DNA of 64,000 nt from a virus: positions 1 to 64,000 of the IMG/VR virus record IMGVR_UViG_3300007539_004938, one strand, 5' to 3'. Of this stretch, positions 1 through 26,608 are shown one piece after another. Each line of letters begins with the position of its first letter. Within the stretch, counting starts at the first letter, position 1. The position numbers and the translations under genes are program-made. The notes below the pieces were generated by a model that saw nothing but the letters and a program-made list of their open reading frames with translations, did no database searches and was not told the DNA's origin.

Positions 1-693
1 CTGTTACCATATTTCCGCAGAGTTGAGTTTGCTGGTGGTGAGCCACTGATGGATCCTAATCACTATCGCATTTTAGACTTGTTAGCACCATACGGCGAAA
101 ACATTGAAATAAAGTATGCTACAAACGGCACAGTGACGGGTATAAAGGGCGGAAGGACCATACACGACTATTGGCCTAAGTTTAAAAACGTGGTCGTAAA
201 TGTAAGCATAGACGGGCTACACGATGTTTATGAATACATTAGAGGCAATGGTAAGTTTGAAGAAATGGAAGAAAATGTCAAAATTTTTAAGAGCTTTCCC
301 AATGTTAAATATGTTGTAGGTGCTTGCACAGTGCAAGCAGGTAATGTTATGCAACTACCAGATATTATTGATTACTTTTTAAATACCATGGGCATTGTTT
401 TTTATTCACACAGAGTAAACTATCCAAATGTATTGAGTGCTCAGTGTTTGCCTCTAGAATACAAAGAAGTTGTAGTTGATCGATTGACCGCAATGAAAGA
501 GATAGTGCCAAAGTACCCTATTATGGCTGTGGATGATAGATTGTTGCCAATAACACTGCAACAAATACAGGATAATATCAACTTTTTAATGGCTAGAGAC
601 TTGAGCGACAAATGGCCGCAAACACTGGAGTTCAATCACAGACTAGATGCAAGCAGGAATCAAAGAAAGTTTGAGCAGGTATGTTTAGGGTAG
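1..693 (+). CDS. Radical SAM protein, C-terminal part (5' end outside the window); same subtype as the N-terminal-twitch rSAMs
   Basis: Frame 1 is open from base 1 (LLPYFRRVEFAGGEPLMDP...), so the ORF-track start at 49 is internal. Motifs AGGEP, YATNG, VSIDG..YEYIR and C-terminal LD.SRN match 7315..8697, 19228..20511 and 20504..21733. Confidence 0.85.
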   Translation: MLPYFRRVEFAGGEPLMDPNHYRILDLLAPYGENIEIKYATNGTVTGIKGGRTIHDYWPKFKNVVVNVSIDGLHDVYEYIRGNGKFEEMEENVKIFKSFPNVKYVVGACTVQAGNVMQLPDIIDYFLNTMGIVFYSHRVNYPNVLSAQCLPLEYKEVVVDRLTAMKEIVPKYPIMAVDDRLLPITLQQIQDNINFLMARDLSDKWPQTLEFNHRLDASRNQRKFEQVCLG

Positions 694-1577
694 AAAATCG
701 CTGGCCTCATTATGCAGACAGTGTGAAAATAGAATGGAACTTGGGCAAACGCTGCAATCTAGATTGCACATATTGTCCTCCTGAAATACACGACTTGATA
801 AGTCCACACACAAATGCAGGTACACTTTTCAATACTGTTGATGAGATAAGCAAAATACCAAATGCTAGAATCAGCTTCACCGGTGGAGAACCAACTGTGC
901 ATCCTGCTTTCGAAGATTTACTAGAGTATGCAAGACCCAAGATAAAGTGGTTAAGTGTTACAACCAACGGCACAAGGACCACAGAGTTTTATGAACGCAT
1001 ACCTGTAAACTATATTGTGTTCAGTTTACACTTTGAGGATACTCAATGGAGTAAAAGATTAAACAATATTATCAACTTTGCAACTGCAACAGAAAGTTTG
1101 AAGTTTCCAAAGGATTATCATATTGCACTAATGGCACATCAGGATCATATGAGTGATGTCAAAAAAGCAGCAGCATATCTCACTGGACACGAAATACCAT
1201 ACACAGTTAGAAGAATAAGATGGACAGAAAAGCACGATTGGTTTGACGATTTAAAATACAATCAAAATGACTTGGATTGGATAATGCGCAACACTGCAAC
1301 TGCTCAACCCAATACACTGATAGACGAACACGAACTAAAGCACGCCAACGATGTAATAAAAGAACATCTAAATCAGTTCGAAGGATGGAACTGTATGGCA
1401 GGTATAGAAAGCCTAATGATAAACTGGGACGGTGAAGTACACAGAGCCACTTGTAGAGTAGGTGGAAGTTTGGGAAATATATACAATAACACATTCAAAC
1501 TACCAGAGGAGCCTGTTGTTTGCACACGCAAGTGGTGTACTTGTGCCGCAGACATTAATATAACAAAATGGAAGTAG
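681..1577 (+). CDS. Radical SAM protein with C-terminal twitch/SPASM-like Cys cluster (subtype B)
   Basis: CNLDCTYC, FTGGEPT, TTNG; C-terminal WNC...INWDGEV..ATC...LGNI...VCTRKWCTC. Confidence 0.9.
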   Translation: MFRVENRWPHYADSVKIEWNLGKRCNLDCTYCPPEIHDLISPHTNAGTLFNTVDEISKIPNARISFTGGEPTVHPAFEDLLEYARPKIKWLSVTTNGTRTTEFYERIPVNYIVFSLHFEDTQWSKRLNNIINFATATESLKFPKDYHIALMAHQDHMSDVKKAAAYLTGHEIPYTVRRIRWTEKHDWFDDLKYNQNDLDWIMRNTATAQPNTLIDEHELKHANDVIKEHLNQFEGWNCMAGIESLMINWDGEVHRATCRVGGSLGNIYNNTFKLPEEPVVCTRKWCTCAADINITKWK

Positions 1578-2629
1578 AAGCAATAAAACTAGCCAAACCC
1601 GAACCCATGACAGTTACATGGGATATAGGGCGCCGCTGCAACTTTGACTGTACATATTGCGAAAGCGATAGGCACAATACCTACAGTCCGCCTACATTAT
1701 GGGAGGACCTGTTAGAAACATACAACTTTGTTAAAAACTACACAATGATGTATAACCAACCAAATGCAAACATCAACTTCACAGGGGGCGAACCAACTGT
1801 TAATCCCCGCTTTTGGGACTTTGTACAACATATCAAAGACACCAGTGACTTTACTGTTGGACTTACCAGCAATGGCACATGGCCAGAAAAATATATTGAT
1901 ATTATCAAACAAAACATTGTAGGAGTTACGTTAAGTTACCATACTGAAGCAAAACATTTTAGTAAACAACGAACTATAGACAATGCTAAACTACTGAAAG
2001 ACAACAATGTATGGCTAACAGTGAATGTAATGATGCACACCGATCATTGGGACGAGTGTATAGAAACAGTTGACATTTTACAAAAATATGGTATAATAGT
2101 ATTTCCTACTATAATTGGAGACGGTAACTTGGGAACAACAGAGTGGTTCAAAGACAGCGAAGGTGTATTGCGCAGAACAAGTCATCCTTACACGCAACAG
2201 CAACAAGCATGGTTCTTTGATTACCACGGTATAGATGCAAAAACACAAGAACAAATATTAAGTGGTAATCAAATGCCAAGAGGTTGCTGCGGAAATAGAG
2301 ATATATTGGGCAAGTGCAACAACTGTTGGAGTAAAATAAGTGCTGTAAACACAAACTTTGAAGGTTGGTATTGTAGTGTAAACAAACACTTTTTACACAT
2401 AGACCAACACACACAAAAAGTGTATCATCATCAGACTTGCAAAGCCAAGTTTGAAGGCAGAGGTGCAATAGGCAGTTTGCGGAACACAGATGGTATACTC
2501 AACTATGTGCTGGAAAACCAAGGCAGAACCATTGTGTGTCCAAACAGTAGGTGCGGATGTGGCATGTGTGTGCCTAAAGCAAGATCAAGGAGCGAGTATG
2601 AAAGCATTACCAGACCTACCACTGTATGA
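1568..2629 (+). CDS. Radical SAM protein with extended Cys-rich C-terminus (subtype C)
   Basis: CNFDCTYC, FTGGEPT, TSNG; C-terminal GCCG..., WYCSVNKHFLHI, TCK, CPNSRCGCGMCVPKA. Confidence 0.9.
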   Translation: MEVEAIKLAKPEPMTVTWDIGRRCNFDCTYCESDRHNTYSPPTLWEDLLETYNFVKNYTMMYNQPNANINFTGGEPTVNPRFWDFVQHIKDTSDFTVGLTSNGTWPEKYIDIIKQNIVGVTLSYHTEAKHFSKQRTIDNAKLLKDNNVWLTVNVMMHTDHWDECIETVDILQKYGIIVFPTIIGDGNLGTTEWFKDSEGVLRRTSHPYTQQQQAWFFDYHGIDAKTQEQILSGNQMPRGCCGNRDILGKCNNCWSKISAVNTNFEGWYCSVNKHFLHIDQHTQKVYHHQTCKAKFEGRGAIGSLRNTDGILNYVLENQGRTIVCPNSRCGCGMCVPKARSRSEYESITRPTTV

Positions 2630-3287
2630 TCAAGTGACTTGGATATTCCAAGAAAGCAACTTTGATTATATTGAACTGGATTATCCTATGCTTAATATCG
2701 ATCAGTACAAAGCAGAAGCAGAACTTGCTGAAGATTACTATGTGGATCACAGAGACGAAAGCACAGGCGAAGGTTCGCACCAAGGTTGGCAGGCTTGTAC
2801 ACTGTATGGCATAGACACAGACAAAACCAATCACTGGTGGGTTTATGATTATGAACTGCCACCTGCGCACGATTGGACAGAACTAGGAGACTTGTGTCAA
2901 TATATCAAAAACTTTTGGTTGCAGTTTCCTGCAGAGTTTGTTTATAGAAGTAGATTTATGCGACTTGGTGCAGGCGGTATGATAGACACACACAACGACA
3001 ATCCGGGTGACATAGATTTAAGTGCATGGCACACACTGCAAATACCAATCAACACTGCTATCAATCATCCAGCAGGATGTGAGATGCATGTTGAAAACAC
3101 TGTTGTTCCATTTGCCGATGGAAAACAGTTTTTGGTAAACATTTTCAAAGATCACAATGTGCATAATCCAACTGACACAGATAGAATACACAACATTACA
3201 CATGTTATTCCAGGCAGTATGCACACACTATTTGCAAATCTTGTTGTAAGGAGTTATAAGAAGCAATATGATAAAGTATCCGGGTAA
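2598..3287 (+). CDS. Fe(II)/2-oxoglutarate-dependent oxygenase, aspartyl/asparaginyl beta-hydroxylase-like
   Basis: RFMRLGAGGMIDTHND (HxD), then DHNVHN...RIH, a double-stranded beta-helix pattern. Start moved from 2490 to the ATG at 2598 (MKALPDL) to minimise overlap. Confidence 0.7.
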   Translation: MKALPDLPLYDQVTWIFQESNFDYIELDYPMLNIDQYKAEAELAEDYYVDHRDESTGEGSHQGWQACTLYGIDTDKTNHWWVYDYELPPAHDWTELGDLCQYIKNFWLQFPAEFVYRSRFMRLGAGGMIDTHNDNPGDIDLSAWHTLQIPINTAINHPAGCEMHVENTVVPFADGKQFLVNIFKDHNVHNPTDTDRIHNITHVIPGSMHTLFANLVVRSYKKQYDKVSG

Positions 3288-4359
3288 GTTTCACAGCAGA
3301 GAAGACTTTTGTGTTGTTATTGTAGACGATACTCACAAGTACTCTGGCATTACAAAAGAATATGTAAAAAATCAGGCAGACTACACAATACAAAACTGTG
3401 TTGGTATGAACTTTGATGTGTATGTTACAAGAGACGAAGAACAAACATTAAAACAACTACAATATGAAAAAGCAGTTGTTATAAGCCCTGCTACTGAGTT
3501 TTTATACGGCGAGCAGTTTTTTGAAAGTATAAAAGGAGATTATTTCCTATTAGGACATTTATTGGATATGGGAGATGCATTTTATACTTTACATCCTCAA
3601 TGTTACGTAGTAAACTTAAAACTTTTAGAAGTAGAAATAGGACAGGAGCAACATTGCATTCAACACAGACAAGTTATACCAATTAGGACAGAACAAAATA
3701 TTCACGACTGGTATACTCCTTTAGAGATTGAAGCAAGTTGGAAAGTTGGAACTTATAATCATAAACTGCATGGATACAATGCTATCGGAGTTGGGTTACG
3801 ACAGGGATACAAAATTTTATCTTTTAACGAAAAGCAACGTTCTCTGAAAAACTATATATATCCTGATGGAACTGGAATAGATTTCATACACAAACGTCAT
3901 AGATTTGCGTTAACAGAACTAGTTTATAATGAAAACACAGGAAGTGATAATCTACCTATTCATGAACGCACTACTTTAGAAACTGTTGTTTTACCAGCAA
4001 GCGGTAATTTATATGAAAAACTTGGAGACGAAAACACCTTATTTATTTTTTATGATCATAGTCCTACAGCATTAGAAAATATTAAAAGTAAAACAAAGCA
4101 TATTAATGCAGAGTATCATCATATAGATGTTATCGCTGAAACTGATGATTTTATAAAAATAATAGAAAATAGACCTGGACGTTTATATATAGAAATGAGT
4201 AATGTTTTCTGTTTTGAATGCACTACTCCATTTTACAGTTTAGAATATAGAAAGAAAGCAGAAGAAAAACTAATAAGTTTTGCAGATCGATTTGATTATT
4301 GGATACATTTTGATCAACGAGCAGGTGATATTATTGATTTACCTTATTGGCATTACTAA
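3268..4359 (+). CDS. Hypothetical protein (363 aa); C-terminal part weakly resembles a SAM-binding Rossmann fold
   Basis: Long ORF overlapping the upstream stop. FIFYDHSPTAL / YHHIDVI / IEMSNVF strand pattern only; function uncertain. Confidence 0.55.
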   Translation: MIKYPGKFHSREDFCVVIVDDTHKYSGITKEYVKNQADYTIQNCVGMNFDVYVTRDEEQTLKQLQYEKAVVISPATEFLYGEQFFESIKGDYFLLGHLLDMGDAFYTLHPQCYVVNLKLLEVEIGQEQHCIQHRQVIPIRTEQNIHDWYTPLEIEASWKVGTYNHKLHGYNAIGVGLRQGYKILSFNEKQRSLKNYIYPDGTGIDFIHKRHRFALTELVYNENTGSDNLPIHERTTLETVVLPASGNLYEKLGDENTLFIFYDHSPTALENIKSKTKHINAEYHHIDVIAETDDFIKIIENRPGRLYIEMSNVFCFECTTPFYSLEYRKKAEEKLISFADRFDYWIHFDQRAGDIIDLPYWHY

Positions 4360-5392
4360 GTTGTTCACTAGGTGATATTAGTTTATTTCCGCATGTTCTA
4401 GCACAAGTGTATAGTTTGTTTATTGACCAGTATTTTTCCCAAACTGATTGATATTGATCGCTCTCTACTATGTCTATTATGCTAGATTTTAAAACATTTG
4501 TATCACCTAAATCTTTTATAAGCATTTCGTATTGGTTTTCTATGTGTAATCTAATATCATCAAGTTTAGGATTTTCATAAGGTTGGTATGGTATGCTTGC
4601 AAGAAAACAACACGGAAATAAGTTTTTGTGAGCATCAATATATATTTCTTTGCTATGTTTAGCATAACATGTTATAGTTGTGCTATCTACATACTCTTGT
4701 ATATTTTCTAAATCATTATCTGTAAGTTTAATATTAGAACTTAATGAACTAGGATATAAAAAATATTGAAATCGTATTTTTTTATCAAAAACTCCAAAGC
4801 TATCATCAAAAGCAAATCTGCTGCTGTGTTTAACATAAAAATCTTTAAATCCATAAGAACGACTTAAATCTCTTGCTGTTTCAATTTGATGTTCATTGTG
4901 TCTAAATACTAAAAAACTCCATACTGCATTTCCGCCATTTAATATAAAATGTTTTGCATTAGATAAAACTTTTTCATAAGAAGTTCCAATCCTATATATT
5001 GAATGTGTATCCTTTAAACCATCTAAAGAAAAAACTACTTTGTGATTTGTAGGTAAACAGCTAGGTAGACTAGTCCACCAGTCAGCATTATGCATTCCGC
5101 CATTTGTGTGTATTTCAATACTTTTTTGTTTTTGTTTTAGGTATTGTAATATTTTTAATATATCAGGACATATCATAGGATCTCCAAAGTTTCCGCAGAT
5201 ATAAAAGTGTTGAATAAACTTTAGGCTAACATCATCAAATACTTTAATAAAATCATCAATACTCCAGTCACAAATTTTGATTCTACTATTTTCTAATCCG
5301 CCATGCCAGTTACGATCGCACATAGGACAACTTGCTTGACATCTATTGGTAAGTTCTATATGTACAGTTTTGATGTCTTTATAACGAATCAT
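4331..5392 (-). CDS. Radical SAM protein with C-terminal SPASM/twitch-like domain (subtype D)
   Basis: IELTNRCQASCPMC, CGNFGDP in place of GGEP, HTNG, FSLDG; C-terminal ITC...IYIDA...FPCC...TCARTC. Start MIRYK at 5392 preferred over 5422. Confidence 0.9.
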   Translation of the reverse strand: MIRYKDIKTVHIELTNRCQASCPMCDRNWHGGLENSRIKICDWSIDDFIKVFDDVSLKFIQHFYICGNFGDPMICPDILKILQYLKQKQKSIEIHTNGGMHNADWWTSLPSCLPTNHKVVFSLDGLKDTHSIYRIGTSYEKVLSNAKHFILNGGNAVWSFLVFRHNEHQIETARDLSRSYGFKDFYVKHSSRFAFDDSFGVFDKKIRFQYFLYPSSLSSNIKLTDNDLENIQEYVDSTTITCYAKHSKEIYIDAHKNLFPCCFLASIPYQPYENPKLDDIRLHIENQYEMLIKDLGDTNVLKSSIIDIVESDQYQSVWEKYWSINKLYTCARTCGNKLISPSEQLSNANKVNQ

Positions 5393-6401
5393 ACAGTTGT
5401 TTTGTCCTTGCTTTAGGCGCACATATACCGCACCAACATGTTTTCTTTTTGCATATTATAGTGCCAGTGGTACCTAGTCTATCCAATATTTCTTTTGTAT
5501 TATTGAGTGTACCAATAGGTCCTATGCCGCCGTCCCAATTCATTTTACAATCCTTGTTTGTGTACACCATTTTGCTGTGTTGTTGCACATACAAAAAATG
5601 TTTGTCCACACTGCAATGCCAGCCAGCAAAACGATTTTCAACTTTGTCTACAGTGCATCCATCTGAACAAAGTTTTGCTCCACCGCAACAAGCTCTTTTG
5701 TCTCCTAGATCAAATCCCCTTGTTATTATAGACAGCAGTTTCTTGTTTAACTTTGTAGGAGATTCGCCACGCAAGTATTTTACTTGTTCAGCATTGTAGT
5801 TAAATCTAAAATCTAACCAGTGATGATCTATTTCTCGCAAGTGGTAAGGCACCTTTGATTTTTTACACCATTCAACCATTGCAACACACTTTTCCCAATA
5901 TTTTGGATGCATCATGATGTTGACTTGAAACTGTTTTTTATTGGCTTTTAAACCCATTACATTGTGTTTAAAAATTTTAACTTGCTTTGATTCTGTTTCA
6001 GCATGAAATGTTACAGTGTAATAATCTATATACTTCATCATTGTATTCCATAGATTGTTTCCTACAACACCGTTTGTAATAGTACTGACATTAATATTTT
6101 TACCAGAATCTTTTATCCTGTAATGCAAGTGCTGAAATACATTTAAAATGCCAGGTTGGAAGAAACTTTCTCCACCTTGTATGTTAATACCTGCATACTG
6201 TTGCTCTATAGGTTTTGTATCTAGTATTCTACTGGTGTATTCTATAATAAAATCAGCAGTAGTCAAACAATCTTGCCATTCAGGATGATTAGTTTTGTTA
6301 TTATGTCCATCACCGCAATATGAACAATCAAGATTGCATTTAAGAGTAGTTTCCCATTGTACATCAAACATTTTGGGACTAACAGGTTTTAAAATGTCCA
6401 T
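5379..6401 (-). CDS. Radical SAM protein, subtype C (paralogue of 1568..2629)
   Basis: CNLDCSYC, QGGES, ITNG; C-terminal ACCGG, WHCSVDKHFLYV, DCK, CKKKTCWCGICAPKA. Start MDILKP at 6401. Confidence 0.9.
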   Translation of the reverse strand: MDILKPVSPKMFDVQWETTLKCNLDCSYCGDGHNNKTNHPEWQDCLTTADFIIEYTSRILDTKPIEQQYAGINIQGGESFFQPGILNVFQHLHYRIKDSGKNINVSTITNGVVGNNLWNTMMKYIDYYTVTFHAETESKQVKIFKHNVMGLKANKKQFQVNIMMHPKYWEKCVAMVEWCKKSKVPYHLREIDHHWLDFRFNYNAEQVKYLRGESPTKLNKKLLSIITRGFDLGDKRACCGGAKLCSDGCTVDKVENRFAGWHCSVDKHFLYVQQHSKMVYTNKDCKMNWDGGIGPIGTLNNTKEILDRLGTTGTIICKKKTCWCGICAPKARTKQLYDSL

Positions 6402-15578: not shown

Positions 15579-15598
15579 ATGTTAAAGGACTTTATATT

Positions 15599-20511: not shown

Positions 20512-21733
20512 CCATCATCTCCGCAAGTTCTGGAAAAGTTTGACAAAAGTCTTCATTTCTTATCTCGTCACGTCTTTGTATATGATGTTGAAACTGTTGT
20601 TTTTCATTGTCCCAAGTGTCTTGTTCATTTGCAAAATTCATTGCATCCTTAACGTGTAGAGATGGCCACCATCCATCTTTACTCATAAAGTCGTAAAGTT
20701 TTTGATTGTTACTATTACCAATTTCTTTTAGACTTACTGGCAATGCATGAGCACAAAAATAAGAAGGTGTTATTGCTCTATATATACTAATACTATCTTT
20801 ATGTCTAAATAAATCTTTGTTCATTAAGTATGTAAAAAAATCAGCCAAAGTTCTATAATTAAATACACTTAGTACTGTGTTAAACTGGTAATCAATGTAA
20901 TCTAAATTCCTAATACTTTTTAAGTTTTCTTCAACAACAGCCCAATCTGTTCCATGCCTCAAATATTCAGCACGTTTTCCATAGTGATCTAAACTAGCAC
21001 TTATTTCTACTTTTTTAAATCTACTCCATAAATCTAATATATCATATTTTTTATATTTGAAGTTGCTCATGTTAGTATTATATCGCAAAGTGATTTGTTT
21101 ATTATATCCACCTTGTATCATTTCTTCAAGTATTTGATAATGTTCGTCTGTAATCAACGGTTCGCCACCGGCAAAATATGCCATGTCCATATGACATACT
21201 TGAGATTTTATTTCTTCTAAAAGTTTACCAGATGAATCGGCGTGATTGATTATTCTATAGTTAGGCGGAACATGATCATGCTGTTTCATTTCTTGCGCCC
21301 ATTGACTACTAAACTCTGCACCGCAGGTCCTACATTTAAAGTTGCAAATATTACTAAATCTAACATCAAAGTAACGCATTTTGAAATCTGCAACAGTTCC
21401 ATCGTCTTCAGTAGTTGGAACTACTTCGTCAAAATATTTACTAAAGTTTTCTAAACTATATGTTCTAAAACTAAAAGGACTGCTTTTTTCATGTTTGTAA
21501 CAATATTCACAAATACTGCTTTTTTCATCATTAAGCATTCTCAAGCGTAGTTCACGCATAAGTTTATCATTAAATATTTCAGACAAAGGTTTGTTTTTTA
21601 CATTATCAAAAGGATCAGTATAATCACTGCTACAACAGGGATAAACATCACCCTTTGGGGTAACGTTTAAATGTATCCACGGAAACATGCAAAATGTTTT
21701 ACTATTTAATAACTTTTCTTTGTCAAAATCCAT
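20504..21733 (-). CDS. N-terminal-twitch radical SAM protein (subtype A; tandem paralogue of 19228..20511)
   Basis: FCMFPW...KGDVYPCC...ICEYC; CNFKCRTC; FAGGEP; YNTN. Shares DVRFSNICN and RHGTDW with its neighbour. Start MDFDK at 21733. Confidence 0.9.
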   Translation of the reverse strand: MDFDKEKLLNSKTFCMFPWIHLNVTPKGDVYPCCSSDYTDPFDNVKNKPLSEIFNDKLMRELRLRMLNDEKSSICEYCYKHEKSSPFSFRTYSLENFSKYFDEVVPTTEDDGTVADFKMRYFDVRFSNICNFKCRTCGAEFSSQWAQEMKQHDHVPPNYRIINHADSSGKLLEEIKSQVCHMDMAYFAGGEPLITDEHYQILEEMIQGGYNKQITLRYNTNMSNFKYKKYDILDLWSRFKKVEISASLDHYGKRAEYLRHGTDWAVVEENLKSIRNLDYIDYQFNTVLSVFNYRTLADFFTYLMNKDLFRHKDSISIYRAITPSYFCAHALPVSLKEIGNSNNQKLYDFMSKDGWWPSLHVKDAMNFANEQDTWDNEKQQFQHHIQRRDEIRNEDFCQTFPELAEMMDG

Positions 21734-23105
21734 TTGCTTCCTTACATAGGTCAAAGAAATCATTCATTTCAGGAAAGGTAGATTCAAAATCTACGTTACG
21801 TCTACGATCTTGTTCTTTAAAAAAGTTCCAAAAATCTCGACGACCTTCTCTAACTCTATCAGGAGTATATTCTGTAGACCTCATGTAATCAACTACACGA
21901 CGAAACTTTTCGTACTCTAATTCACTAAAATGATTTTTACTACCTTCTTGTACATTTTCTCTAATAAACTGTAAATGTTTTTCCATATAGGGCAGGTACT
22001 GCTCTTTAGGCAAAATATTTATATCATATTGCAACGGCTCTTTTAGATATGGTGTATCAAAATGAATACGTTGCCATCTGCCACTGTTTACATCATTATA
22101 CTTACGGCGCCATTCTAGCATTTTTTCTAGTAAAGTTTCAAACGTAGTTACACTAAACAAACTAAACGTAATCATAAATGTTACAGGCGCAGTGGTATTA
22201 CGCATAAAGTAATCTAAGTTACGTTCAAACACTTCTAAGTCTAAACCGTCTCTAATATATTCTGCACGAGGCCCCCAAGTATCAATGCTGCTGAATAACT
22301 TAAACTGTTTAATTTTATTTTGACTTAACAAACTGTTTACACTATCAGTAAACTTTTCTAGTTGTTTTTCTTTGCCGCCAAGATTACTGTTCACATTTAG
22401 TTCAAGATGTGGCTTTGGATCTTTTTCAAGTTCTTCAAACAGTCTATATGTGCTTTTTTGTATTGTAGGCTCTCCGCCAGTAACACGTAAAATGTTTAGT
22501 GTCTTGCTAACTTCAGGCCACCATTTCCACCAAGCACGTAAGTAAGGATTTTTATCTTCTTCGTATATACGAAACCAATCGATATCGTTTCTATGATTTT
22601 TAACCATGTTATATGGACCGTGTTGACGGATTTCATTGTAATATCTACTACTTGCTTTTGGATGACAATATCCGCAACGGAAGTTGCATTCATTACCAAA
22701 TGAAATTTCAATATACTCAGGGTTAACATTAAAATCCCAAGGATTGAACTTTACTTCTTGCAATCTTTCTTCACTGTAAATACTACCACTACGAATATGA
22801 CGGTCACTAATATAATCGTCTCCCATGTTTTCAATATTCCAGCAATAGTTACATCCGACACATTGTTTGCCTTCTAACATCTCTCTGCGTTCTTGTTTCT
22901 TTTGTTTTGTATTATGCAACGCACTAGGATTGGTTAGGAGCTCGTCAACATCAATTTGATGAGGAGCAGGGTGATAACAACTGTGTGTTTCACCTGTTTG
23001 CAAGTAGATAGTTGTATGGTACCATTTTGCAAAACAAAATGTAGGAGAAAAATGCCTTGTTGTAATAGCATTAATACTTTTAAGTTTATCTGTATTTTCT
23101 GACAT
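21723..23105 (-). CDS. N-terminal-twitch radical SAM protein, variant (CFAKW / SCYH)
   Basis: FCFAKW...GETHSCYH...CVGCNYC; CNFRCGYC; TGGEPT; QDRRRN...FPEM. Start MSENT at 23105. Confidence 0.88.
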   Translation of the reverse strand: MSENTDKLKSINAITTRHFSPTFCFAKWYHTTIYLQTGETHSCYHPAPHQIDVDELLTNPSALHNTKQKKQERREMLEGKQCVGCNYCWNIENMGDDYISDRHIRSGSIYSEERLQEVKFNPWDFNVNPEYIEISFGNECNFRCGYCHPKASSRYYNEIRQHGPYNMVKNHRNDIDWFRIYEEDKNPYLRAWWKWWPEVSKTLNILRVTGGEPTIQKSTYRLFEELEKDPKPHLELNVNSNLGGKEKQLEKFTDSVNSLLSQNKIKQFKLFSSIDTWGPRAEYIRDGLDLEVFERNLDYFMRNTTAPVTFMITFSLFSVTTFETLLEKMLEWRRKYNDVNSGRWQRIHFDTPYLKEPLQYDINILPKEQYLPYMEKHLQFIRENVQEGSKNHFSELEYEKFRRVVDYMRSTEYTPDRVREGRRDFWNFFKEQDRRRNVDFESTFPEMNDFFDLCKEANGF

Positions 23106-23106
23106 A

Positions 23107-24030
23107 TTATCTCTTTGCAGTTCTTGGTGGATTTGTGTACACTGTTTTGAAGAACTGACTTTGATTTCCATTAAACGGCTGAGCTGCAATAGGCAAGTCA
23201 AGTTCTTCAATCAAACTATAACCAAGCGATAATGTATTATCTTCCATTTCGTCATCATTCATTTGTTTGCTATTCCAATATTCATTAAGCCATTTAAAAT
23301 CACGAACATTAACAAAATCCCAGTCTGTACACATTGTTTTGTACAAGCCTTCTCTAGCACCATAAATAGCCCATTCACCGTTTTCAACATCGGCGCCTAC
23401 CATTAACCAAACATACAATCTATGTAGATTTTTCCAATGATTTTTATGAAAATCATCTAAACTTGGTTTCATTCCTCTGTCAAGTGCCATCTTTACACCC
23501 TCACGGAATCCAGCACGCCATGCTTGCTGTGGAGTAGCGTTATTCATTATTTCTGAATAACAACCGTTCATTTGTATATATTCAATATCCCAACAAAAAT
23601 CTACTTGTGCATGTGGATTATTAGGATCTGCATTTTCATGGGTGCGCATTTCTAAGACTTTTTTCTTTGGCCAGCATTTGATTCCACCGTTACCATATTC
23701 AAGACCGTTGATTGTATTTTTGGCACTCCAACTAATCACACACTCCTCTAAACTTACATTTCTATTCCAGTGTCCATCTTCATGGTCATCTAAGTTAAAA
23801 CTTTTTGTAAGAAAAGAAGGATTAATAATGTTATCACCATCTACTGTAATAAACCTATCAGTTTCGCTTAATTCTGCACAGGCTTTATGCGCAGCATCAC
23901 TACCTTCTACACCGTGTACACGTTTTGCCCACGGAATTTTTTTGCACAAATCTGCATAGTTTTTTTCTGCGTTTGGTTCATCATAGCTAAGATAAATGAT
24001 ATCGTAGTCTAAAACCCTAAACTCTGTCAT
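23107..24030 (-). CDS. Putative GT-A fold glycosyltransferase
   Basis: DIIYLSYDE, RVHGVEG..AAHKACA, FITVDGDN (DxD after a hydrophobic strand), AWRAGFRE. Confidence 0.6.
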   Translation of the reverse strand: MTEFRVLDYDIIYLSYDEPNAEKNYADLCKKIPWAKRVHGVEGSDAAHKACAELSETDRFITVDGDNIINPSFLTKSFNLDDHEDGHWNRNVSLEECVISWSAKNTINGLEYGNGGIKCWPKKKVLEMRTHENADPNNPHAQVDFCWDIEYIQMNGCYSEIMNNATPQQAWRAGFREGVKMALDRGMKPSLDDFHKNHWKNLHRLYVWLMVGADVENGEWAIYGAREGLYKTMCTDWDFVNVRDFKWLNEYWNSKQMNDDEMEDNTLSLGYSLIEELDLPIAAQPFNGNQSQFFKTVYTNPPRTAKR

Positions 24031-24599
24031 ACTAGTACCTCATGATAATAACTTTCAAGTCTCTTTGAAGTATACACGCTAAATGCGTCTGGGTCAAGTT
24101 CTAAATCACTGTTAAAATCAATTGTGTGTGCATCATTTATAACTGTAGAAATATCAACTACAAAAAATCTATGTAAATGATTTGGATTATTTTTTTTAGT
24201 TACACTAAATCCCATAACTTGATTAAAGTTTAGTTTATTTTGTTTAAAATTTTGTTGTATTTTTTTATCAACTGTAAAAATCCATTTTTTATTTTTTGTA
24301 TCTTGTGTTACTGTTAAATCTGGATTATCTGAGATTGTAGGTAACTTGTATATTTGATCGTTTATATTTTGCATATAAGTATCTTCATTGTATATATGTT
24401 TTAACACATGCATTTTTACTTTGCTATCAAATACCACAAGATAGTTTTTAAACTGTTCTTTACCAGTTATCAAATTTTCTACATCACTTGGATCAACTTT
24501 AATAAAGTTAGCATCATCAGGAACTCTATTATAAACTCCTAAAAGATTACCATGTTCGTCAAAAGTTACATATTTGTCTACATTCACAAATACACTCAT
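24027..24599 (-). CDS. Hypothetical protein
   Basis: 190-aa ORF coupled by 4-bp overlaps to both neighbours. Confidence 0.7.
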   Translation of the reverse strand: MSVFVNVDKYVTFDEHGNLLGVYNRVPDDANFIKVDPSDVENLITGKEQFKNYLVVFDSKVKMHVLKHIYNEDTYMQNINDQIYKLPTISDNPDLTVTQDTKNKKWIFTVDKKIQQNFKQNKLNFNQVMGFSVTKKNNPNHLHRFFVVDISTVINDAHTIDFNSDLELDPDAFSVYTSKRLESYYHEVLV

Positions 24600-25432
24600 A
24601 ATATTCCTTTTTCAAATGTTTCAATCATTTCTTGTGTTACAAAGTTTTTTTCAGTATAATGAAAAACTCCAGATTGCTTATAGTTGCCTATAAACAAATC
24701 ACAATCGGCATCTAAATATACACCAACCTTATCTTGCCACGACTCTGTTTTAATATCCCACCAATCTTGCCCATGTAACTTCATGTGTGTCAAATGAGGA
24801 AAACTTGTGTTGCTAGTAACTTGTTTTTCAATATTTAAAAGTTTTACTGCGATAGCACAACTTACATCCATACTTGGAAACTTCTGAAAGTATTTACCAC
24901 CAGCAAACTGACCATAAAATAATTCCCAGTTATTCATTACAAGTTCTAGCAACTTGAAAAAGGTGTGTGTATCATCACATTTTTTAAAATAATACAATGC
25001 ACAATATATATTTGGTAACTGATGTGTTTTAAATGAATGTCTATAGTAATCTGTATTGTATGTTGTACCTCTATATGTTTTAATATTAGAAGTAAAAAAC
25101 AGATCTTTTTTATCTAAAAACTTCCACCAATGTTCAATATTTTCTAATACTAATACATCTGTATCTAATACAAATGTTTTATCAAAAGGTGTTGCATGAT
25201 AAACTTTCCATCTATGTTCTGCAGAGAATCTAGATTCTTTTTGTTCATACCATGGTATTTCTACAATATCATCAAATACACTTTTTTGTTTAGGTGTTAT
25301 CTCGTCGTTAGTAATTAAACATACATTTGCATTTTTGTTATATTTTTTAATACTGCAAGCAGCTAAGTATGCTTGCTGTATATAATCGTGATTTTTATTT
25401 TCTGCTAATAATGTAAAATTAGCCATTATCAA
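24596..25432 (-). CDS. GT-A glycosyltransferase (GT8-like)
   Basis: LAACSIK...VCLITN...FDDIV; TPFDKTFVLDTDVL (DxD); ALYYFKK; SMD. Confidence 0.7.
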   Translation of the reverse strand: MIMANFTLLAENKNHDYIQQAYLAACSIKKYNKNANVCLITNDEITPKQKSVFDDIVEIPWYEQKESRFSAEHRWKVYHATPFDKTFVLDTDVLVLENIEHWWKFLDKKDLFFTSNIKTYRGTTYNTDYYRHSFKTHQLPNIYCALYYFKKCDDTHTFFKLLELVMNNWELFYGQFAGGKYFQKFPSMDVSCAIAVKLLNIEKQVTSNTSFPHLTHMKLHGQDWWDIKTESWQDKVGVYLDADCDLFIGNYKQSGVFHYTEKNFVTQEMIETFEKGIL

Positions 25433-26264
25433 TAATCCTATTCAAACTGTATTTGTTAATCACATGTACGTTGCTTCCTTTTATTCTTAAAGGTGTATAC
25501 TCATTACTTTCATTTCTTTTTTGTATTAAAAATAAAAAGTTATCATCTTTTAAATCTATTAAAACATCTTTGTCTGTACAATAATACATTGTACCTGGCA
25601 TTGTTCCTGCAAAGTTATTGTTTGTGTATCCATTCATAATATGTATAGCAATACTAAATGCATGATCATTTCTAAATACATTTGTGTTTAGTTTATAAAG
25701 GTTACGGTAATGTGGATAATATTCTTGTATATGCGATACTAGATCAAAAAAAGTTTTGTTAAGTTCTGTTTTTCTAAAAAATATACAAGTTGCCCAGTAA
25801 AATGTAGGCCCAATTTCACTTATAAATGTAAACTCATTTTTATCTCTCCATCCTGATAAATCAAATGCATCTTTGTATAGCAAAAGATCTTTTTGCTGTA
25901 CAAAACACTCATTTAAAATGTCATTACTAACAACAAAATCTGTATCTAGTAACAAGGTTTCGTCGTAAGGAGACAAATCATAAACACTACTTCGATTACT
26001 GTTTTTAAACTCTAGTTGTTTTTTTGCAAATATACCATCATAATATTTTTTATAGCTATATTTTTTGTCATTATCAACTTGTATTATTTTATCAAAGACA
26101 TCTACACTATTTTTGTATGTGTTATACAAGTAATCAACATTATCAGTAACTAAAGAAGTGGGCAAGTCTAAATACTTGCGCACACGTTTTGCAAGAAAAA
26201 TTGCTTGCTTTATATAATCTATTTCAGTATTATTTCGAGCTATTAAAACAACACCTTGATTCAT
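25419..26264 (-). CDS. GT-A glycosyltransferase (GT8-like), tandem paralogue
   Basis: TSLVTD...FDKII; SPYDETLLLDTDFV (DxD); TCIFFRK; RNDHAFSIA; HVINK. Confidence 0.7.
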   Translation of the reverse strand: MNQGVVLIARNNTEIDYIKQAIFLAKRVRKYLDLPTSLVTDNVDYLYNTYKNSVDVFDKIIQVDNDKKYSYKKYYDGIFAKKQLEFKNSNRSSVYDLSPYDETLLLDTDFVVSNDILNECFVQQKDLLLYKDAFDLSGWRDKNEFTFISEIGPTFYWATCIFFRKTELNKTFFDLVSHIQEYYPHYRNLYKLNTNVFRNDHAFSIAIHIMNGYTNNNFAGTMPGTMYYCTDKDVLIDLKDDNFLFLIQKRNESNEYTPLRIKGSNVHVINKYSLNRIIDNG

Positions 26265-26608
26265 ACTTCAATGATGCCCTTAACAGTTCTATTTGTTTTT
26301 AGTTTATTATATTCAGTGATATATTTATTTGCTGCTTTTGAGTACACGTTAACCATTTCACTTGCAAAAACTTTTAAATCTTCAACCTGTATTGGAATAT
26401 CGTTATCATCAATAAGTACAGTTTCCTCTTGTCCTAATGCTAACAAACTTTGACAAAAACTAACAAGTCCTGGATTAACTGTAAACTGTCCTCCATTGCA
26501 AAAATATAATAAATCATCTTGGTATTGTTCTTTCAAAACTCTTTTTGTATTATCTAAAGTAATCATATAGTTACTAAAGTCAAGAGCTTTTTCTAGTCTT
26601 TCATCCAT
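26261..26608 (-). CDS. Hypothetical protein; first gene of the GT/rSAM operon
   Basis: 115-aa ORF with AAGGAG Shine-Dalgarno, directly behind a sigma70-type promoter. Confidence 0.7.
   Translation of the reverse strand: MDERLEKALDFSNYMITLDNTKRVLKEQYQDDLLYFCNGGQFTVNPGLVSFCQSLLALGQEETVLIDDNDIPIQVEDLKVFASEMVNVYSKAANKYITEYNKLKTNRTVKGIIEV

What the first reader, a model, noticed from the sequence alone, without database searches (positions are those of the whole stretch)
1..26608. Phage island with 11 radical SAM enzymes and 6 glycosyltransferase-like genes beside the tail module: candidate virion glycan/PTM tailoring system
Seen: in 26.6 kb, still open at the left edge, there are 11 radical SAM genes (10 with a visible CxxxCxxC; one 5'-truncated), 3 GT-A and 3 GT10-like transferases, 3 SGNH-like proteins, an SDR epimerase/dehydratase, a DegT aminotransferase, an amidinotransferase, a methyltransferase, a kinase-fold protein and a 2OG oxygenase. 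The island lies immediately downstream of, and largely co-oriented with, the tail-fibre genes. Known: these families make, transfer and tailor NDP-sugars, and twitch/SPASM rSAMs such as BtrN and anSME oxidise aminocyclitol or protein hydroxyls. Inference: one pathway that builds an unusually modified glycan and attaches it to virion proteins. Alternatives are DNA hypermodification or host-surface remodelling, but this window shows no thymidylate-synthase/hydroxymethylase, TET/JBP or membrane/export genes. I know of no characterised phage pathway with this rSAM density.
Basis: partly seen in the sequence, partly recalled or inferred. Interest (0 to 1): 0.92.

Follow-up and report, generated by a model that had tools for sequence, protein, structure and literature searches.

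The report
Phage radical-SAM sugar-tailoring island
An uncultured aquatic giant phage carries, right behind its tail-fibre genes, a 26.6-kb block of soluble sugar-building, sugar-transferring and iron-sulfur "radical SAM" enzymes that most likely makes an unusual, probably guanidino-bearing sugar chain; blocks of this kind have been noticed before, but neither the product nor its target has been analysed.

Summary
The window is the first 64 kb of a 76-kb IMG/VR contig from a jumbo myovirus. Bases 1-26608 encode 11 radical SAM proteins. Five are NF033640 "N-terminal twitch" types. Six are shorter, and five of these carry a C-terminal Cys cluster.

The same stretch holds two GT8 and one GT-A-fold transferase and three GT-B paralogues. 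It also holds an NDP-sugar SDR, a 200-aa mini DegT, a StrB1-like amidinotransferase (E 3e-83) and an AspH/LpxO-type oxygenase. The SGNH, methyltransferase and kinase calls are weaker. No island protein has a membrane segment.

Bases 10.4-32 kb are syntenic in about 25 related viral contigs. A six-gene core follows fibre-like genes even in the cultured Ralstonia phage RsoM2USA. Homologues in Bacteriovoracaceae MAGs again sit among glycosyltransferases. This supports a role in building and editing a glycan (about 0.75).

The virion target is only my leading guess (about 0.4). For it: linkage to fibre genes and T4-type late promoter motifs. Against it: the mini DegT-amidinotransferase pair lies far from tail genes in cyanophage S-SCSM2R.

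Phages this rich in radical SAM genes are already published (CP220/CPt10, marine viral genomes, pelagimyophage host-recognition clusters). This scan has logged similar islands on other DNA: 63 notes from at least 53 genomes.

The parts
1..693 (+). N-terminal-twitch radical SAM (NF033640), 5'-truncated by the contig end
   Evidence: NF033640 at 164 bits over profile positions 170-390 and PF04055 E 2e-8. Full-length orthologues are 415-441 aa in L057 and L059.
681..1577 (+). Short radical SAM with C-terminal Cys cluster
   Evidence: PF04055 E 4e-12; CNLDCTYC at residue 25; GWxC...C...CxC tail.
1568..2629 (+). Short radical SAM with C-terminal Cys cluster
   Evidence: PF04055 E 3e-15; CNFDCTYC; C-terminal CPNSRCGCGMC.
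2490..3287 (+). AspH/LpxO-type Fe(II)/2OG oxygenase
   Evidence: PF05118 E 5.5e-9, 36.5 bits against a cut-off of 22.6.
3268..4359 (+). Unknown 363-aa protein; weak GT-A-like lead only
   Evidence: No Pfam, NCBIfam or PHROG hit. Atlas structure rows name GT2/nucleotide-sugar transferases at TM 0.36-0.39 only.
4331..5422 (-). Radical SAM, separate lineage
   Evidence: PF04055 E 1e-9; CQASCPMC. Homologues at 26-44% identity in 43 viral loci and in Bacteriovoracaceae MAGs.
5379..6434 (-). Short radical SAM with C-terminal Cys cluster
   Evidence: CNLDCSYC; PF04055 at 25 bits, below the cut-off; 31% identical to 1568-2629 at E 6e-45.
6389..7318 (-). Short radical SAM with C-terminal Cys cluster
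   Evidence: PF04055 E 4e-9; CNFKCSYC.
7315..8697 (-). N-terminal-twitch radical SAM
   Evidence: NF033640 at 397.6 bits; SPASM domain at residues 22-100, ahead of the CNIKCVMC motif at 154.
8694..9299 (-). Putative methyltransferase (weak)
   Evidence: Methyltransf_25 E 0.021 only. It travels with the radical SAM genes in viral loci, RsoM2USA and Bacteriovoracaceae.
9290..10420 (-). GT-B-fold glycosyltransferase paralogue
   Evidence: Shares its C-terminal half with 15599-16930 and 11312-12454. The family model has a GT-B fold.
10399..11310 (-). Extended SDR acting on NDP-sugars (epimerase, dehydratase or reductase)
   Evidence: PF01370 E 2e-38 and PF16363 E 9e-37. PDB: UDP-glucose 4-epimerase E 3e-28 and GDP-6-deoxy-mannose reductase E 6e-25.
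11312..12454 (-). GT-B-fold glycosyltransferase paralogue
   Evidence: Paralogy; fold of the family model.
12384..12986 (+). Mini DegT-like PLP enzyme (200 aa)
   Evidence: PF01041 E 9e-11. Conserved at 195-226 aa in relatives, with invariant D84 and K108 in SFQYKKH. Matches perosamine synthetase and AHBA synthase at E 2e-6. 52% identical to S-SCSM2R ORF305.
12948..13757 (-). SGNH-like protein (motif level); heads a nine-gene minus-strand run behind a late-type motif
   Evidence: Invariant FGCS, GxGN and DxHPD. hhalign to 14759-15547 gives probability 86%. ATAAATA lies 32 nt upstream, and in 8 of 14 orthologues.
13778..14785 (+). StrB1-like amidinotransferase
   Evidence: Profile against PDB: 1bwd inosamine-phosphate amidinotransferase E 2.7e-83 over residues 3-333, then HsvA, AGAT and SxtG. 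Invariant GGxFHCxT with C325. 65% identical to S-SCSM2R ORF309.
14759..15547 (-). SGNH-like protein (motif level)
   Evidence: Invariant GCS, N101 and D232xxH235. No PDB hit.
15599..16930 (+). GT-B-fold glycosyltransferase ('GT10-like')
   Evidence: AF2 pLDDT 80. Z 11.1 to T4 beta-glucosyltransferase, 10.8 to alpha-1,3-FucT, 9.3 to FUT11 and 9.0 to T4 alpha-glucosyltransferase. Late-type motif 40 nt upstream, and in 8 of 12 orthologues.
16907..17665 (-). DUF6071, SGNH-like motifs
   Evidence: PF19547 E 4e-12. Invariant GCSH and PGxSN. No PDB hit.
17626..18276 (-). Small kinase-fold protein (weak)
   Evidence: PHROG kinase E 0.006. Profile against PDB: protein kinase E 0.0017 and Bud32 E 0.0095. 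Present in only some relatives.
18273..19235 (-). Short radical SAM with C-terminal Cys cluster
   Evidence: CNFQCTYC; PF04055 at 29 bits. Orthologues are 69-97% identical.
19228..20511 (-). N-terminal-twitch radical SAM
   Evidence: NF033640 at 379.5 bits; SPASM E 1e-11 at residues 14-78; CNMKCRSC at 130.
20504..21763 (-). N-terminal-twitch radical SAM
   Evidence: NF033640 at 363.5 bits. 28 related viral loci at 58-93% identity.
21723..23105 (-). N-terminal-twitch radical SAM, the best-conserved gene of the core; true start is the ATG at 23105
   Evidence: NF033640 at 305.7 bits. Homologues are 456-462 aa, and more than 4,000 clusters score E<=1e-10. The ATG lies 1 nt after the stop of the upstream gene.
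23107..24030 (-). GT-A-fold transferase with invariant DGD
   Evidence: pLDDT 88. Z 9.3 B4GALNT1 and 9.1 STIV A197; Foldseek SunS/ThuS/TarP at E 3e-4. Invariant D63 and D65.
24027..24599 (-). Conserved 190-aa protein of unknown function
   Evidence: Kept in the same position in relatives and RsoM2USA. No family hit.
24596..25432 (-). GT8 (glycogenin-like) glycosyltransferase
   Evidence: Family profile against PDB: glycogenin-1 and -2 at E 2e-6; DxD (LDTD) and a C-terminal His are invariant.
25419..26264 (-). GT8 (glycogenin-like) glycosyltransferase, paralogue
   Evidence: Paralogy E 2e-8; same profile.
26261..26608 (-). Conserved 115-aa first gene of the core operon, function unknown
   Evidence: Orthologues in 14 loci and in RsoM2USA gp354.
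26609..26660 (-). Conserved sigma70-type promoter (TTGACT-17-TATAAT) and Shine-Dalgarno site ahead of the core operon
   Evidence: 11 of 12 hexamer positions match. The -35 and -10 boxes are conserved in 11 aligned loci and found in 11 of 14 loci. The same promoter type precedes the late-sigma and SbcD genes.
26661..28609 (-). Two Ser/Thr-rich (26-28%) fibre-like paralogues; candidate glycan acceptors (inference)
   Evidence: 41% identical to each other. Always directly upstream of the core module, in 1-3 copies. Late-type motif in 12 of 16 orthologues. No known fold found by sequence.
28631..34159 (-). Three tail-fibre-like virion proteins sharing an N-terminal domain
   Evidence: PHROG tail fibre and virion structural protein hits.

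Best explanation
The island is a soluble, cytoplasmic glycan factory.

Inferred chemistry. An NDP-hexose is oxidised or dehydrated by the SDR. The mini DegT enzyme transaminates it. The StrB1-like amidinotransferase then converts the amine to a guanidino group, using arginine as donor. Six glycosyltransferases (two GT8, one GT-A, three GT-B) assemble an oligosaccharide. The chain is then edited at unactivated C-H positions by the eleven radical SAM enzymes. All eleven appear to carry an auxiliary Fe-S cluster: five in an N-terminal twitch domain and the others in a C-terminal Cys motif. By analogy with BtrN, NeoN and AviX12, the likely reactions are epimerisation, dehydrogenation or dehydration. 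SGNH-like acyl-handling proteins, a methyltransferase and a 2OG oxygenase add further decoration.

Inferred acceptor. The most likely target is the phage's own fibre-like proteins, encoded directly upstream.

Status of each step. Shown here: the gene families, their linkage and conservation, the absence of membrane proteins, and the promoter motifs. Inferred: every chemical step and the acceptor.
For: Families. Radical SAM, SDR, mini DegT, amidinotransferase at E 2.7e-83 to StrB1 (86), GT8 (38), GT-A fold and GT-B fold.

Conservation. Bases 10.4-32 kb are syntenic in about 25 viral contigs. Enzyme orthologues are 60-97% identical, whereas the fibres are 33-50% identical in all but the closest relatives.

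Linkage to fibres. The core run (115-aa gene, GT8, GT8, 190-aa gene, GT-A, N-twitch radical SAM) directly follows fibre-like genes in distant contigs L059, L072 and L080 and in cultured phage RsoM2USA gp355-347.

Glycan role outside phages. In Bacteriovoracaceae MAGs the N-twitch radical SAM (45% identity), the 4331-like radical SAM, the GT-A-like gene and the methyltransferase lie among four canonical GT2 genes.

Localisation and timing. No island protein has a membrane segment. The phage encodes a gp55-like late sigma factor. Eight of 15 ATAAATA sites lie within 64 nt upstream of a start codon. These include baseplate and fibre-like genes and island genes 13757(-), 15599(+) and 26264(-). The motif is conserved in orthologues of 27722 (12 of 16), 12948 (8 of 14) and 15599 (8 of 12).

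Precedent. Virion glycosylation by transferases encoded next to structural genes is established in mycobacteriophages (Freeman et al. 2023, as cited in PMC12801897). From my own knowledge it is also established in chloroviruses and mimiviruses.
Against: No acceptor site, glycan or product has been observed.

The mini DegT-amidinotransferase pair (52% and 65% identity) lies with glycosyltransferases, a radical SAM gene and 2OG oxygenases in the auxiliary-gene region of cyanophage S-SCSM2R. That region is near psbD, not near tail genes. Linkage to fibres is therefore not obligatory for that sub-module.

The core operon has its own conserved sigma70-type promoter, of the kind that precedes the late-sigma and SbcD genes. 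This suggests expression before late genes.

The GT-B model matches T4 DNA glucosyltransferases as well as it matches fucosyltransferases.

Gene order is broadly conserved in this phage group, so adjacency alone is weak evidence.

The cellular homologues show that the chemistry is not specific to virions.
Confidence: 0.42

Rival explanations
1. Same glycan chemistry, different target. The product modifies the host's envelope glycoconjugates (LPS, capsule or a glycoprotein) during infection, for example to block superinfection or to alter released debris.
For: GT8 is best known from LPS core transferases, and AspH-family enzymes include the lipid A hydroxylase LpxO (my own knowledge of the families). 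Authors read the LPS-type genes of pelagimyophage host-recognition clusters this way (PMC7029224). Cellular homologues sit in a GT2-rich cluster typical of surface polysaccharide loci. A sigma70-type promoter precedes the core operon.
Against: There is no flippase, polymerase, lipid-carrier transferase or any membrane segment among the island proteins. Late-type promoter motifs precede two island transcription units. The phage appears to be a virulent jumbo myovirus, for which late surface remodelling has no obvious benefit (inference).
Confidence: 0.18
2. The island is a biosynthetic cluster for a free, guanidino-bearing glycoside or aminocyclitol-like small molecule that is released at lysis or acts inside the cell.
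For: The best structural relative of the amidinotransferase is StrB1 of streptomycin biosynthesis. The DegT profile also matches 2-deoxy-scyllo-inosose aminotransferases. Twitch radical SAM enzymes such as BtrN act on aminocyclitols (my own knowledge). The S-SCSM2R authors annotated the same pair as 'antibiotic synthesis genes' (PMC12801897).
Against: Six or more glycosyltransferases and 11 radical SAM enzymes far exceed what known aminoglycoside pathways use. No inositol-phosphate synthase, 2-deoxy-scyllo-inosose synthase, exporter or resistance gene was seen. The core stays linked to fibre-like genes.
Confidence: 0.12
3. The radical SAM enzymes act directly on virion proteins, making RiPP-like cross-links, epimerisations or formylglycine-type oxidations. 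The sugar genes form a separate, merely adjacent pathway.
For: SPASM and twitch enzymes very often mature peptides. The NCBIfam secondary hits are mostly peptide maturases, all far below their cut-offs. An AspH-type protein hydroxylase homologue is present.
Against: There is no precursor-like small ORF or RiPP recognition element, and the genes are packed with overlaps. In RsoM2USA and in Bacteriovoracaceae the radical SAM genes travel with glycosyltransferases rather than with any structural protein.
Confidence: 0.1
4. The island hypermodifies phage DNA by glycosylating or otherwise decorating bases, to evade host restriction.
For: The GT-B model's top structural match is T4 beta-glucosyltransferase (Z 11.1), and T4 alpha-glucosyltransferase also appears (Z 9.0). 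PLP, kinase and radical SAM enzymes occur in thymidine hypermodification pathways (my own knowledge). RsoM2USA has a second, divergent thymidylate-synthase-family gene. A sigma70-type promoter precedes the core operon.
Against: This contig has no thymidylate synthase or hydroxymethylase homologue, though it is only about 21% of the genome. A 99%-complete relative with six N-twitch radical SAM genes also has none. Late-type promoter motifs precede the GT-B gene 15599 and the nine-gene run from 13757, which is too late for DNA precursors. The location is among virion genes rather than replication genes, and cellular homologues sit among GT2 genes.
Confidence: 0.08

Closest known systems
Radical SAM cassettes in the host-recognition cluster of pelagimyophages and cyanomyophages (Zaragoza-Solas et al. 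2020, PMC7029224)
   Same: Radical SAM gene cassettes and LPS-type sugar and glycosyltransferase genes lie beside the tail-fibre genes of aquatic myoviruses. An AspH-type hydroxylase is present. The cassettes vary between close relatives.
   Different: Those are T4-sized phages and the paper gives annotation only. Here the phage is a jumbo myovirus whose baseplate resembles Atu_ph07 and RaK2. It has 11 radical SAM genes and an amidinotransferase module. Function is untested in both.
Radical SAM plus amidinotransferase module of Campylobacter phages CP220/CPt10 (Timms et al. 2010, PMC2853527)
   Same: Cultured T4-like phages with 11 and 12 radical SAM genes. They carry an interchangeable module of five radical SAM genes plus a putative amidinotransferase.
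   Different: No detectable close homology. tblastn with the window's N-twitch radical SAM genes and amidinotransferase found no Campylobacter phage at E<=1e-5. That module is not described as linked to fibre or glycosyltransferase genes.
NCBIfam NF033640, N_Twi_rSAM (twitch domain-containing radical SAM protein)
   Same: Four island proteins exceed the family cut-off and a fifth is a truncated member.
   Different: The family is a sequence subfamily with, to my knowledge, no biochemically characterised member. Membership therefore gives no function.
Core module of Ralstonia jumbo phage RsoM2USA, gp354-gp347 (MG752970; PMC8504454)
   Same: Same order behind a fibre-like gene: 115-aa protein, GT8, GT8, about 190-aa protein, GT-A-like, N-twitch radical SAM, then a GT-A-like gene and a methyltransferase. 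Identities are 30-45%.
   Different: It has one radical SAM gene in this module instead of 11, and no amidinotransferase, DegT or GT-B segment. All these genes are annotated as hypothetical. The phage is cultured, so it is experimentally tractable.
Cyanophage S-SCSM2R ORF301-310 (PQ898602; PMC12801897)
   Same: A mini DegT (52% identity) and a StrB1-like amidinotransferase (65% identity) sit with glycosyltransferases, a radical SAM gene and 2OG oxygenases.
   Different: The cluster lies in the auxiliary-gene region, not beside tail genes. It has one radical SAM gene, and no island radical SAM protein matched it by tblastn. The authors read it as 'antibiotic synthesis genes'.
Virion glycosylation in mycobacteriophages (Freeman et al. 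2023) and in chloroviruses and mimiviruses
   Same: Virus-encoded soluble glycosyltransferases, and in giant viruses amino-sugar pathways, are encoded near structural genes and decorate capsid, tail or fibril proteins.
   Different: To my knowledge none of those systems uses radical SAM enzymes or an amidinotransferase. No glycan has been shown here.
Twitch/SPASM radical SAM enzymes acting on carbohydrates (BtrN, NeoN, AviX12, BlsE, DesII)
   Same: A radical SAM core plus an auxiliary Fe-S cluster, encoded among sugar aminotransferase and glycosyltransferase genes.
   Different: In those enzymes the auxiliary domain is C-terminal, whereas five island enzymes have it N-terminal. Sequence similarity to them is only at superfamily level (BlsE E 5e-6, far below its cut-off).

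Membership tests
Radical SAM superfamily | CxxxCxxC motif that binds the SAM-cleaving [4Fe-4S] cluster | tested here: met
   Present in 10 of 11 ORFs. The eleventh lacks its N-terminus because the contig ends.
Radical SAM superfamily | Match to PF04055 at or above the gathering score | tested here: met
   Seven ORFs are clearly above 29.5 bits as proteins. 18273-19235 (29.0-30.0 bits) and 21723-23210 (27.5-27.9 bits, 30.8 when neighbouring matches are counted) are borderline. 5379-6434 (25 bits) is below. 19228-20511 is found only by NF033640 and SPASM.
NF033640 N_Twi_rSAM | Score above the 170-bit curated cut-off over the whole 398-position model | tested here: met
   397.6, 379.5, 363.5 and 305.7 bits for the four complete genes. 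The 5'-truncated gene scores 164.4 bits over positions 170-390.
NF033640 N_Twi_rSAM | Twitch/SPASM Cys-rich domain placed N-terminal to the radical SAM core | tested here: met
   PF13186 matches residues 14-100, ahead of the CxxxCxxC at residues 130-175. C21, C40, C96 and C99 are invariant across 16 members.
GT8 (glycogenin / LPS alpha-glycosyltransferases) | Sequence similarity to GT8 catalytic domains with the DxD motif | tested here: met
   Profile of 28 sequences against PDB: glycogenin-1 and -2 at E 1.7e-6 to 1e-5 over the N-terminal 100 residues. D89 (nearly invariant), invariant D91 (LDTD) and invariant H257. Only the first third of the domain aligns. No Pfam hit for the single sequences.
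GT-A fold glycosyltransferase (23107-24030) | Rossmann-like GT-A fold with a DxD metal site | tested here: inconclusive
   Residues 2-169 match GT-A transferases (Z 9.3-7.3). They match nucleotidyltransferases such as MobA and IspD equally well (Z 8.3-8.0). The invariant D63-G-D65 favours GT-A.
GT10 (alpha-1,3/4-fucosyltransferases) | Match to PF00852 or specific structural similarity to GT10 above other GT-B families | tested here: inconclusive
   The GT-B fold is clear. T4 beta-glucosyltransferase (Z 11.1) ties with H. pylori FucT (Z 10.8). No PF00852 hit in any of 10 members. The atlas's nearest named cluster is GT10, at only 0.79.
SGNH/GDSL hydrolase or acyltransferase | Blocks I (GDS), II (G), III (GxND) and V (DxxH), and the SGNH fold | tested here: inconclusive
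   Block I reads GCS. Gly and Asn blocks and DxxH (or DxHP) are invariant. The third protein hits DUF6071. Profile searches of PDB returned nothing relevant. No fold was predicted.
Amidinotransferase (GME superfamily; StrB1/AGAT type) | Full-length similarity and the catalytic Cys in the C-terminal GGxFHCxT motif | tested here: met
   E 2.7e-83 to StrB1 (1bwd) over residues 3-333, then HsvA, AGAT and SxtG at E 1e-54 to 1e-47. C325, H324 and D-rich blocks are invariant.
DegT/DnrJ/EryC1/StrS sugar aminotransferases | About 370-aa fold-type I enzyme with a PLP-binding Lys and a ring-binding Asp | tested here: inconclusive
   PF01041 E 9e-11 in two stretches. D84 and K108 are invariant. PDB hits at E 2e-6. 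The protein has only 200 aa, and this size is conserved in relatives and in S-SCSM2R, so about 45% of the canonical enzyme is missing.
Extended SDR acting on NDP-sugars | Match to PF01370/PF16363 and to solved NDP-sugar epimerases and dehydratases over the full length | tested here: met
   E 1.6e-38 and 8.8e-37. Residues 1-301 align to UDP-glucose 4-epimerase 4zrm at E 2.7e-28. The exact reaction cannot be told.
Phage virion glycosylation system | Glycosyltransferase genes encoded next to virion structural genes | tested here: met
   The core operon starts 52 nt after a fibre-like gene. This adjacency is kept in distant contigs and in RsoM2USA.
Phage virion glycosylation system | Glycan covalently attached to virion proteins | not testable with these tools
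   This needs glycoproteomics of purified virions.
Phage DNA hypermodification / glycosylation system | A route to a modifiable base (dNMP hydroxymethylase, DpdA or similar) in the same genome | tested here: inconclusive
   No PF00303 hit in this 76-kb contig, which is about 21% of the genome, nor in a 99%-complete 170-kb relative. RsoM2USA has two hits. Other routes were not searched.

The most novel reading that the evidence does not exclude
The N-terminal-twitch and short radical SAM paralogues form a toolkit that edits an already assembled, protein-linked oligosaccharide on the phage's fibre-like proteins, position by position. The reactions would be C-H epimerisation, oxidation or dehydration of individual residues, one of which is a guanidino-deoxyhexose. 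The result would be a virion glycan whose chemistry is unknown in any virus. Gain and loss of radical SAM cassettes (1 to 22 per phage) would diversify the fibre surface the way receptor-binding domains do.
Probability: 0.2. Interest if true: 0.85.

Novelty: new variant of a known kind. Interest (0 to 1): 0.62.

Why it matters
Radical SAM genes are among the most abundant unexplained accessory genes of large aquatic phages. One island gene alone has more than 4,000 protein clusters at E<=1e-10 in metagenomes. Near-identical copies of this island occur in freshwater, estuary and seawater data sets from several studies.

If these genes tailor a glycan on the virion, phage fibres would carry a layer of chemistry relevant to host recognition, stability and grazing or immune evasion. 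That layer is invisible to sequence-based host-range prediction. The N-terminal-twitch family would also gain its first function.

The conserved core is present in the cultured Ralstonia phage RsoM2USA. The mini DegT-amidinotransferase pair is present in the cultured cyanophage S-SCSM2R. The question can therefore be addressed with existing isolates.

Tried and rejected
- Megablast of bases 1-20000 against GenBank phages: no match.
- Profile searches of PDB gave only chance-level hits or none. This covers the GT-A-like family, the GT-B family, the fibre-like family and two SGNH-like families.
- hhalign of A4 against A6 and of A1 against A3 showed no relation.
- Pfam at E<=5 on the unassigned ORFs gave nothing usable.
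- PHROGs gave nothing for the fibre-like paralogues, the 115-aa and 190-aa proteins, or 3268-4359.
- The atlas search of 3268-4359 gave only weak GT/MT leads.
- Complex prediction of fibre-like protein 27722-28609 with the 115-aa protein returned no answer, with score 0.00. This is not evidence either way.
- The search for related loci with the 16-member N-twitch alignment failed because no stretch was conserved enough.
- The generic promoter and terminator scan was at chance level overall. Only the motif placements tested separately are used.
- RNA-library contigs cover island genes patchily. I do not rank genes by depth, and I draw no conclusion from uncovered parts.
- I first suspected a T4-like cyanophage or pelagiphage, from GC content and the LPS-like genes. 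I rejected this in favour of a RaK2/Atu_ph07-like jumbo phage, from baseplate similarity and CheckV size.
- I considered a RiPP pathway. There is no precursor ORF, and the radical SAM genes travel with glycosyltransferases, so I kept it only as a minor rival.

Full report
**What the DNA is.** The window is bases 1-64000 of a 76,254-bp IMG/VR viral contig that CheckV rates about 21% complete. Bases 26.6-60.5 kb on the minus strand encode fibre-like proteins, a 4,593-aa protein, a gp6-like baseplate wedge, other baseplate proteins and a hub/lysozyme. The wedge is 35% identical to those of the jumbo phages Atu_ph07, SCTP-2 and RaK2. A gp55-like late sigma factor and SbcCD-like nuclease genes follow on the plus strand. 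This is a fragment of an uncultured jumbo myovirus of roughly 350 kb. Near-identical sequence occurs in freshwater, estuary and seawater metagenomes from several studies.

**Checking the radical SAM count.** Eleven radical SAM ORFs are real. Ten are found by PF04055, and 19228-20511 is found by NF033640 and SPASM. Ten carry CxxxCxxC, and the eleventh is cut by the contig end. They fall into two groups.
- Five belong to NCBIfam NF033640. In this family the twitch/SPASM Cys domain lies N-terminal to the radical SAM core. Scores are 306-398 bits against a 170-bit cut-off, and 164 bits for the truncated gene.
- Six are shorter. Five of them are paralogues with a conserved C-terminal GWxC...C...CxC motif, presumably a second cluster site.
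- Paralogues are only 20-35% identical to each other. Each has orthologues at 58-97% identity in related contigs. The set is therefore old and each member is kept.

**Checking the other families.** Most hold, with graded support.
- GT8: two paralogues match glycogenin as a profile at E 2e-6 and keep the DxD motif.
- GT-A: 23107-24030 folds with pLDDT 88. Its first 169 residues are a GT-A/nucleotidyltransferase domain (Z 9.3) with an invariant DGD.
- GT-B: the three 'GT10-like' paralogues have a GT-B fold. T4 beta-glucosyltransferase (Z 11.1) and Helicobacter fucosyltransferase (Z 10.8) are tied, and no member hits Pfam GT10.
- The SDR is a standard NDP-sugar enzyme.
- The amidinotransferase matches StrB1 at E 2.7e-83 over its full length and keeps the catalytic Cys motif.
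- The DegT-like protein is a conserved 200-aa 'mini' version that keeps the PLP lysine.
- The 2OG oxygenase is AspH/LpxO-type.
- The SGNH-like, methyltransferase and kinase assignments rest on motifs or borderline scores.
- No island protein has a predicted membrane segment.

**Conservation and modular build.** A search with one N-twitch gene returned 28 viral loci. In about 25 of them, everything from the SDR (10.4 kb) to the fibre genes (32 kb) is in the same order. Outside the closest relatives, the enzymes are better conserved than the fibres: the amidinotransferase at 72-90% and the radical SAM 21723-23105 at 70-94%, against 33-50% for the fibres.

The left 10 kb has its own set of relatives at 30-68% identity in other contigs. 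It holds two N-twitch genes, five further radical SAM genes, the methyltransferase, the oxygenase, one GT-B gene and an unknown gene. In L059 these left-module genes follow the core directly, with no sugar-nucleotide segment between. Three modules can be told apart:
- a core: 115-aa gene, GT8, GT8, 190-aa gene, GT-A, N-twitch radical SAM;
- a radical SAM/methyltransferase module;
- a sugar-nucleotide module: SDR, mini DegT, amidinotransferase, GT-B and SGNH-like genes.

Relatives' contigs give 14 and 22 radical SAM matches.

**Context outside this clade.**
- RsoM2USA, a cultured Ralstonia jumbo phage, has the core in the same order directly behind a fibre-like gene. The genes are gp355 to gp347, at 30-45% identity, and all are annotated as hypothetical. 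Its paper does not address them.
- Cyanophage S-SCSM2R, also cultured, has the mini DegT (52%) and the amidinotransferase (65%) with glycosyltransferases, a radical SAM gene and 2OG oxygenases. These lie in its auxiliary-gene region, far from tail genes.
- Bacteriovoracaceae MAGs carry homologues of the GT-A-like gene. Some 'MAG' hits are clearly mis-binned phage contigs. In two Bacteriovoracaceae MAGs, however, an N-twitch radical SAM (45%), a 4331-like radical SAM, the GT-A-like gene and the methyltransferase lie among four canonical GT2 genes, a QueC/AsnS-like gene and an amine oxidase. A 2.9-Mb Bacteriovoracaceae chromosome carries the GT-A-like and methyltransferase genes.

The association of these radical SAM genes with glycosyltransferases therefore holds in phages and in cells. 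This is my main reason for reading the island as glycan chemistry.

**Timing evidence from promoters (inference).** The 52-nt gap before the core operon holds TTGACT-17-TATAAT followed by a strong Shine-Dalgarno site. Both hexamers are conserved in 11 aligned loci, although the surrounding sequence diverges. The same promoter type precedes the late-sigma and SbcD genes.

Separately, the T4 late-promoter core ATAAATA occurs 15 times in the window. Eight of these lie within 64 nt upstream of a start codon on the right strand, where about 0.3 would be expected by chance. The eight sites lie ahead of:
- two baseplate genes;
- a fibre-like gene;
- the late-sigma gene;
- four island genes: 12384(+), 13757(-), 15599(+) and 26264(-).

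In relatives the motif is kept before orthologues of the fibre-like gene (12 of 16), the SGNH-like gene that heads the nine-gene run from 13757 to 4331 (8 of 14), and the GT-B gene (8 of 12). A large part of the island therefore appears to be transcribed with virion genes, while the core may start earlier.

Three metatranscriptomic libraries contain near-identical pieces of island and fibre genes. This is compatible with expression but is not proof.

**Interpretation.** I put about 0.75 on a soluble pathway that makes an amino or guanidino deoxy-sugar nucleotide, assembles an oligosaccharide and edits it with radical chemistry. I put about 0.4 on the fibre-like proteins being the acceptor.
- For this target: the conserved adjacency, the late motifs, the absence of membrane machinery, and precedents in mycobacteriophages and giant viruses.
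- Against it: the S-SCSM2R context, the sigma70-type promoter, and the fact that gene order is conserved generally.
- Rivals: host-envelope remodelling (0.18), a free guanidino-glycoside (0.12), direct protein modification by the radical SAM enzymes (0.10) and DNA hypermodification (0.08).

On the DNA rival, the GT-B similarity to T4 glucosyltransferases keeps it alive. The late motifs, the cellular GT2 context, and the absence of a thymidylate-synthase-family gene in a 99%-complete relative count against it.

**Novelty.** The phenomenon has been noticed in print:
- 11 and 12 radical SAM genes and an amidinotransferase module in CP220/CPt10 (PMC2853527);
- 12 radical SAM genes in a marine T4-like genome (PMC5332604);
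- radical SAM cassettes in pelagimyophage host-recognition clusters (PMC7029224);
- the DegT/amidinotransferase/radical SAM trio in S-SCSM2R (PMC12801897).

This scan has also logged similar islands many times on other DNA: 63 notes from at least 53 genomes. None has a known product. I rate it a new variant of a known but uncharacterised kind. It is real and biochemically intriguing, and it is testable in two cultured phages.

Noticed in passing
window 34796-48577 (-): A single 4,593-aa ORF lies between the fibre genes and the baseplate wedge. RsoM2USA has a 2,541-aa counterpart (gp361) that was detected in virions (PMC8504454). Its domains were not analysed here.
   Followed up: no
window 60471-60544 and 61370-61425: Sigma70-type promoters (TTGACT-17-TATAAT/TACAAT) precede the gp55-like late sigma gene (60545-61369) and the SbcD-like gene (61426-62439). 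The first gap also holds an ATAAATA late-type motif, so the late sigma gene may be transcribed in both phases.
   Followed up: partly
window 12384-12986 (+); L082 13287-13871: A 'mini' DegT-like protein of about 200 aa, roughly 55% of the normal length, keeps the PLP lysine. It is conserved at this size in many aquatic phages and in cyanophage S-SCSM2R, always with the StrB1-like amidinotransferase. Whether it is active alone is unknown.
   Followed up: partly
window 21723-23210 (-): The longest ORF (TTG at 23210, 495 aa) is over-extended. Homologues are 456-462 aa, and an ATG at 23105 lies 1 nt after the upstream stop codon. The real gene is 21723-23105 and does not overlap the GT-A-like gene by 100 nt.
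   Followed up: yes
L083, L085, L086, L088, L090, L092-L095, L097, L098, L109: Contigs filed in public MAGs under unrelated taxa carry this phage group's fibre and island genes. The labels include Neomarinimicrobiota (contigs of 335 and 153 kb), Rickettsiales, Bifidobacterium, Haliscomenobacter and Dojkabacteria. These are very likely mis-binned jumbo-phage contigs.
   Followed up: partly
L096, L100 (Bacteriovoracaceae MAGs); L102 (2.9-Mb chromosome): This is a cellular version of the radical SAM/GT-A-like/methyltransferase set. It sits among four GT2 genes, a QueC/AsnS-like ATP-pyrophosphatase and a flavin amine oxidase. It could serve as a non-phage model for the chemistry.
   Followed up: partly
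MG752970.1 7739-8398 (-): RsoM2USA has a second, divergent thymidylate-synthase-family gene (85 bits) besides a canonical one (242 bits). It might be a dNMP hydroxymethylase, which keeps a DNA-modification reading open for that phage.
   Followed up: no
window 13915-14317: In all three RNA libraries laid on the island, the contigs covering the amidinotransferase gene have the highest word depth. By the tool's own rules depth cannot rank genes, so this is only a hint.
   Followed up: no
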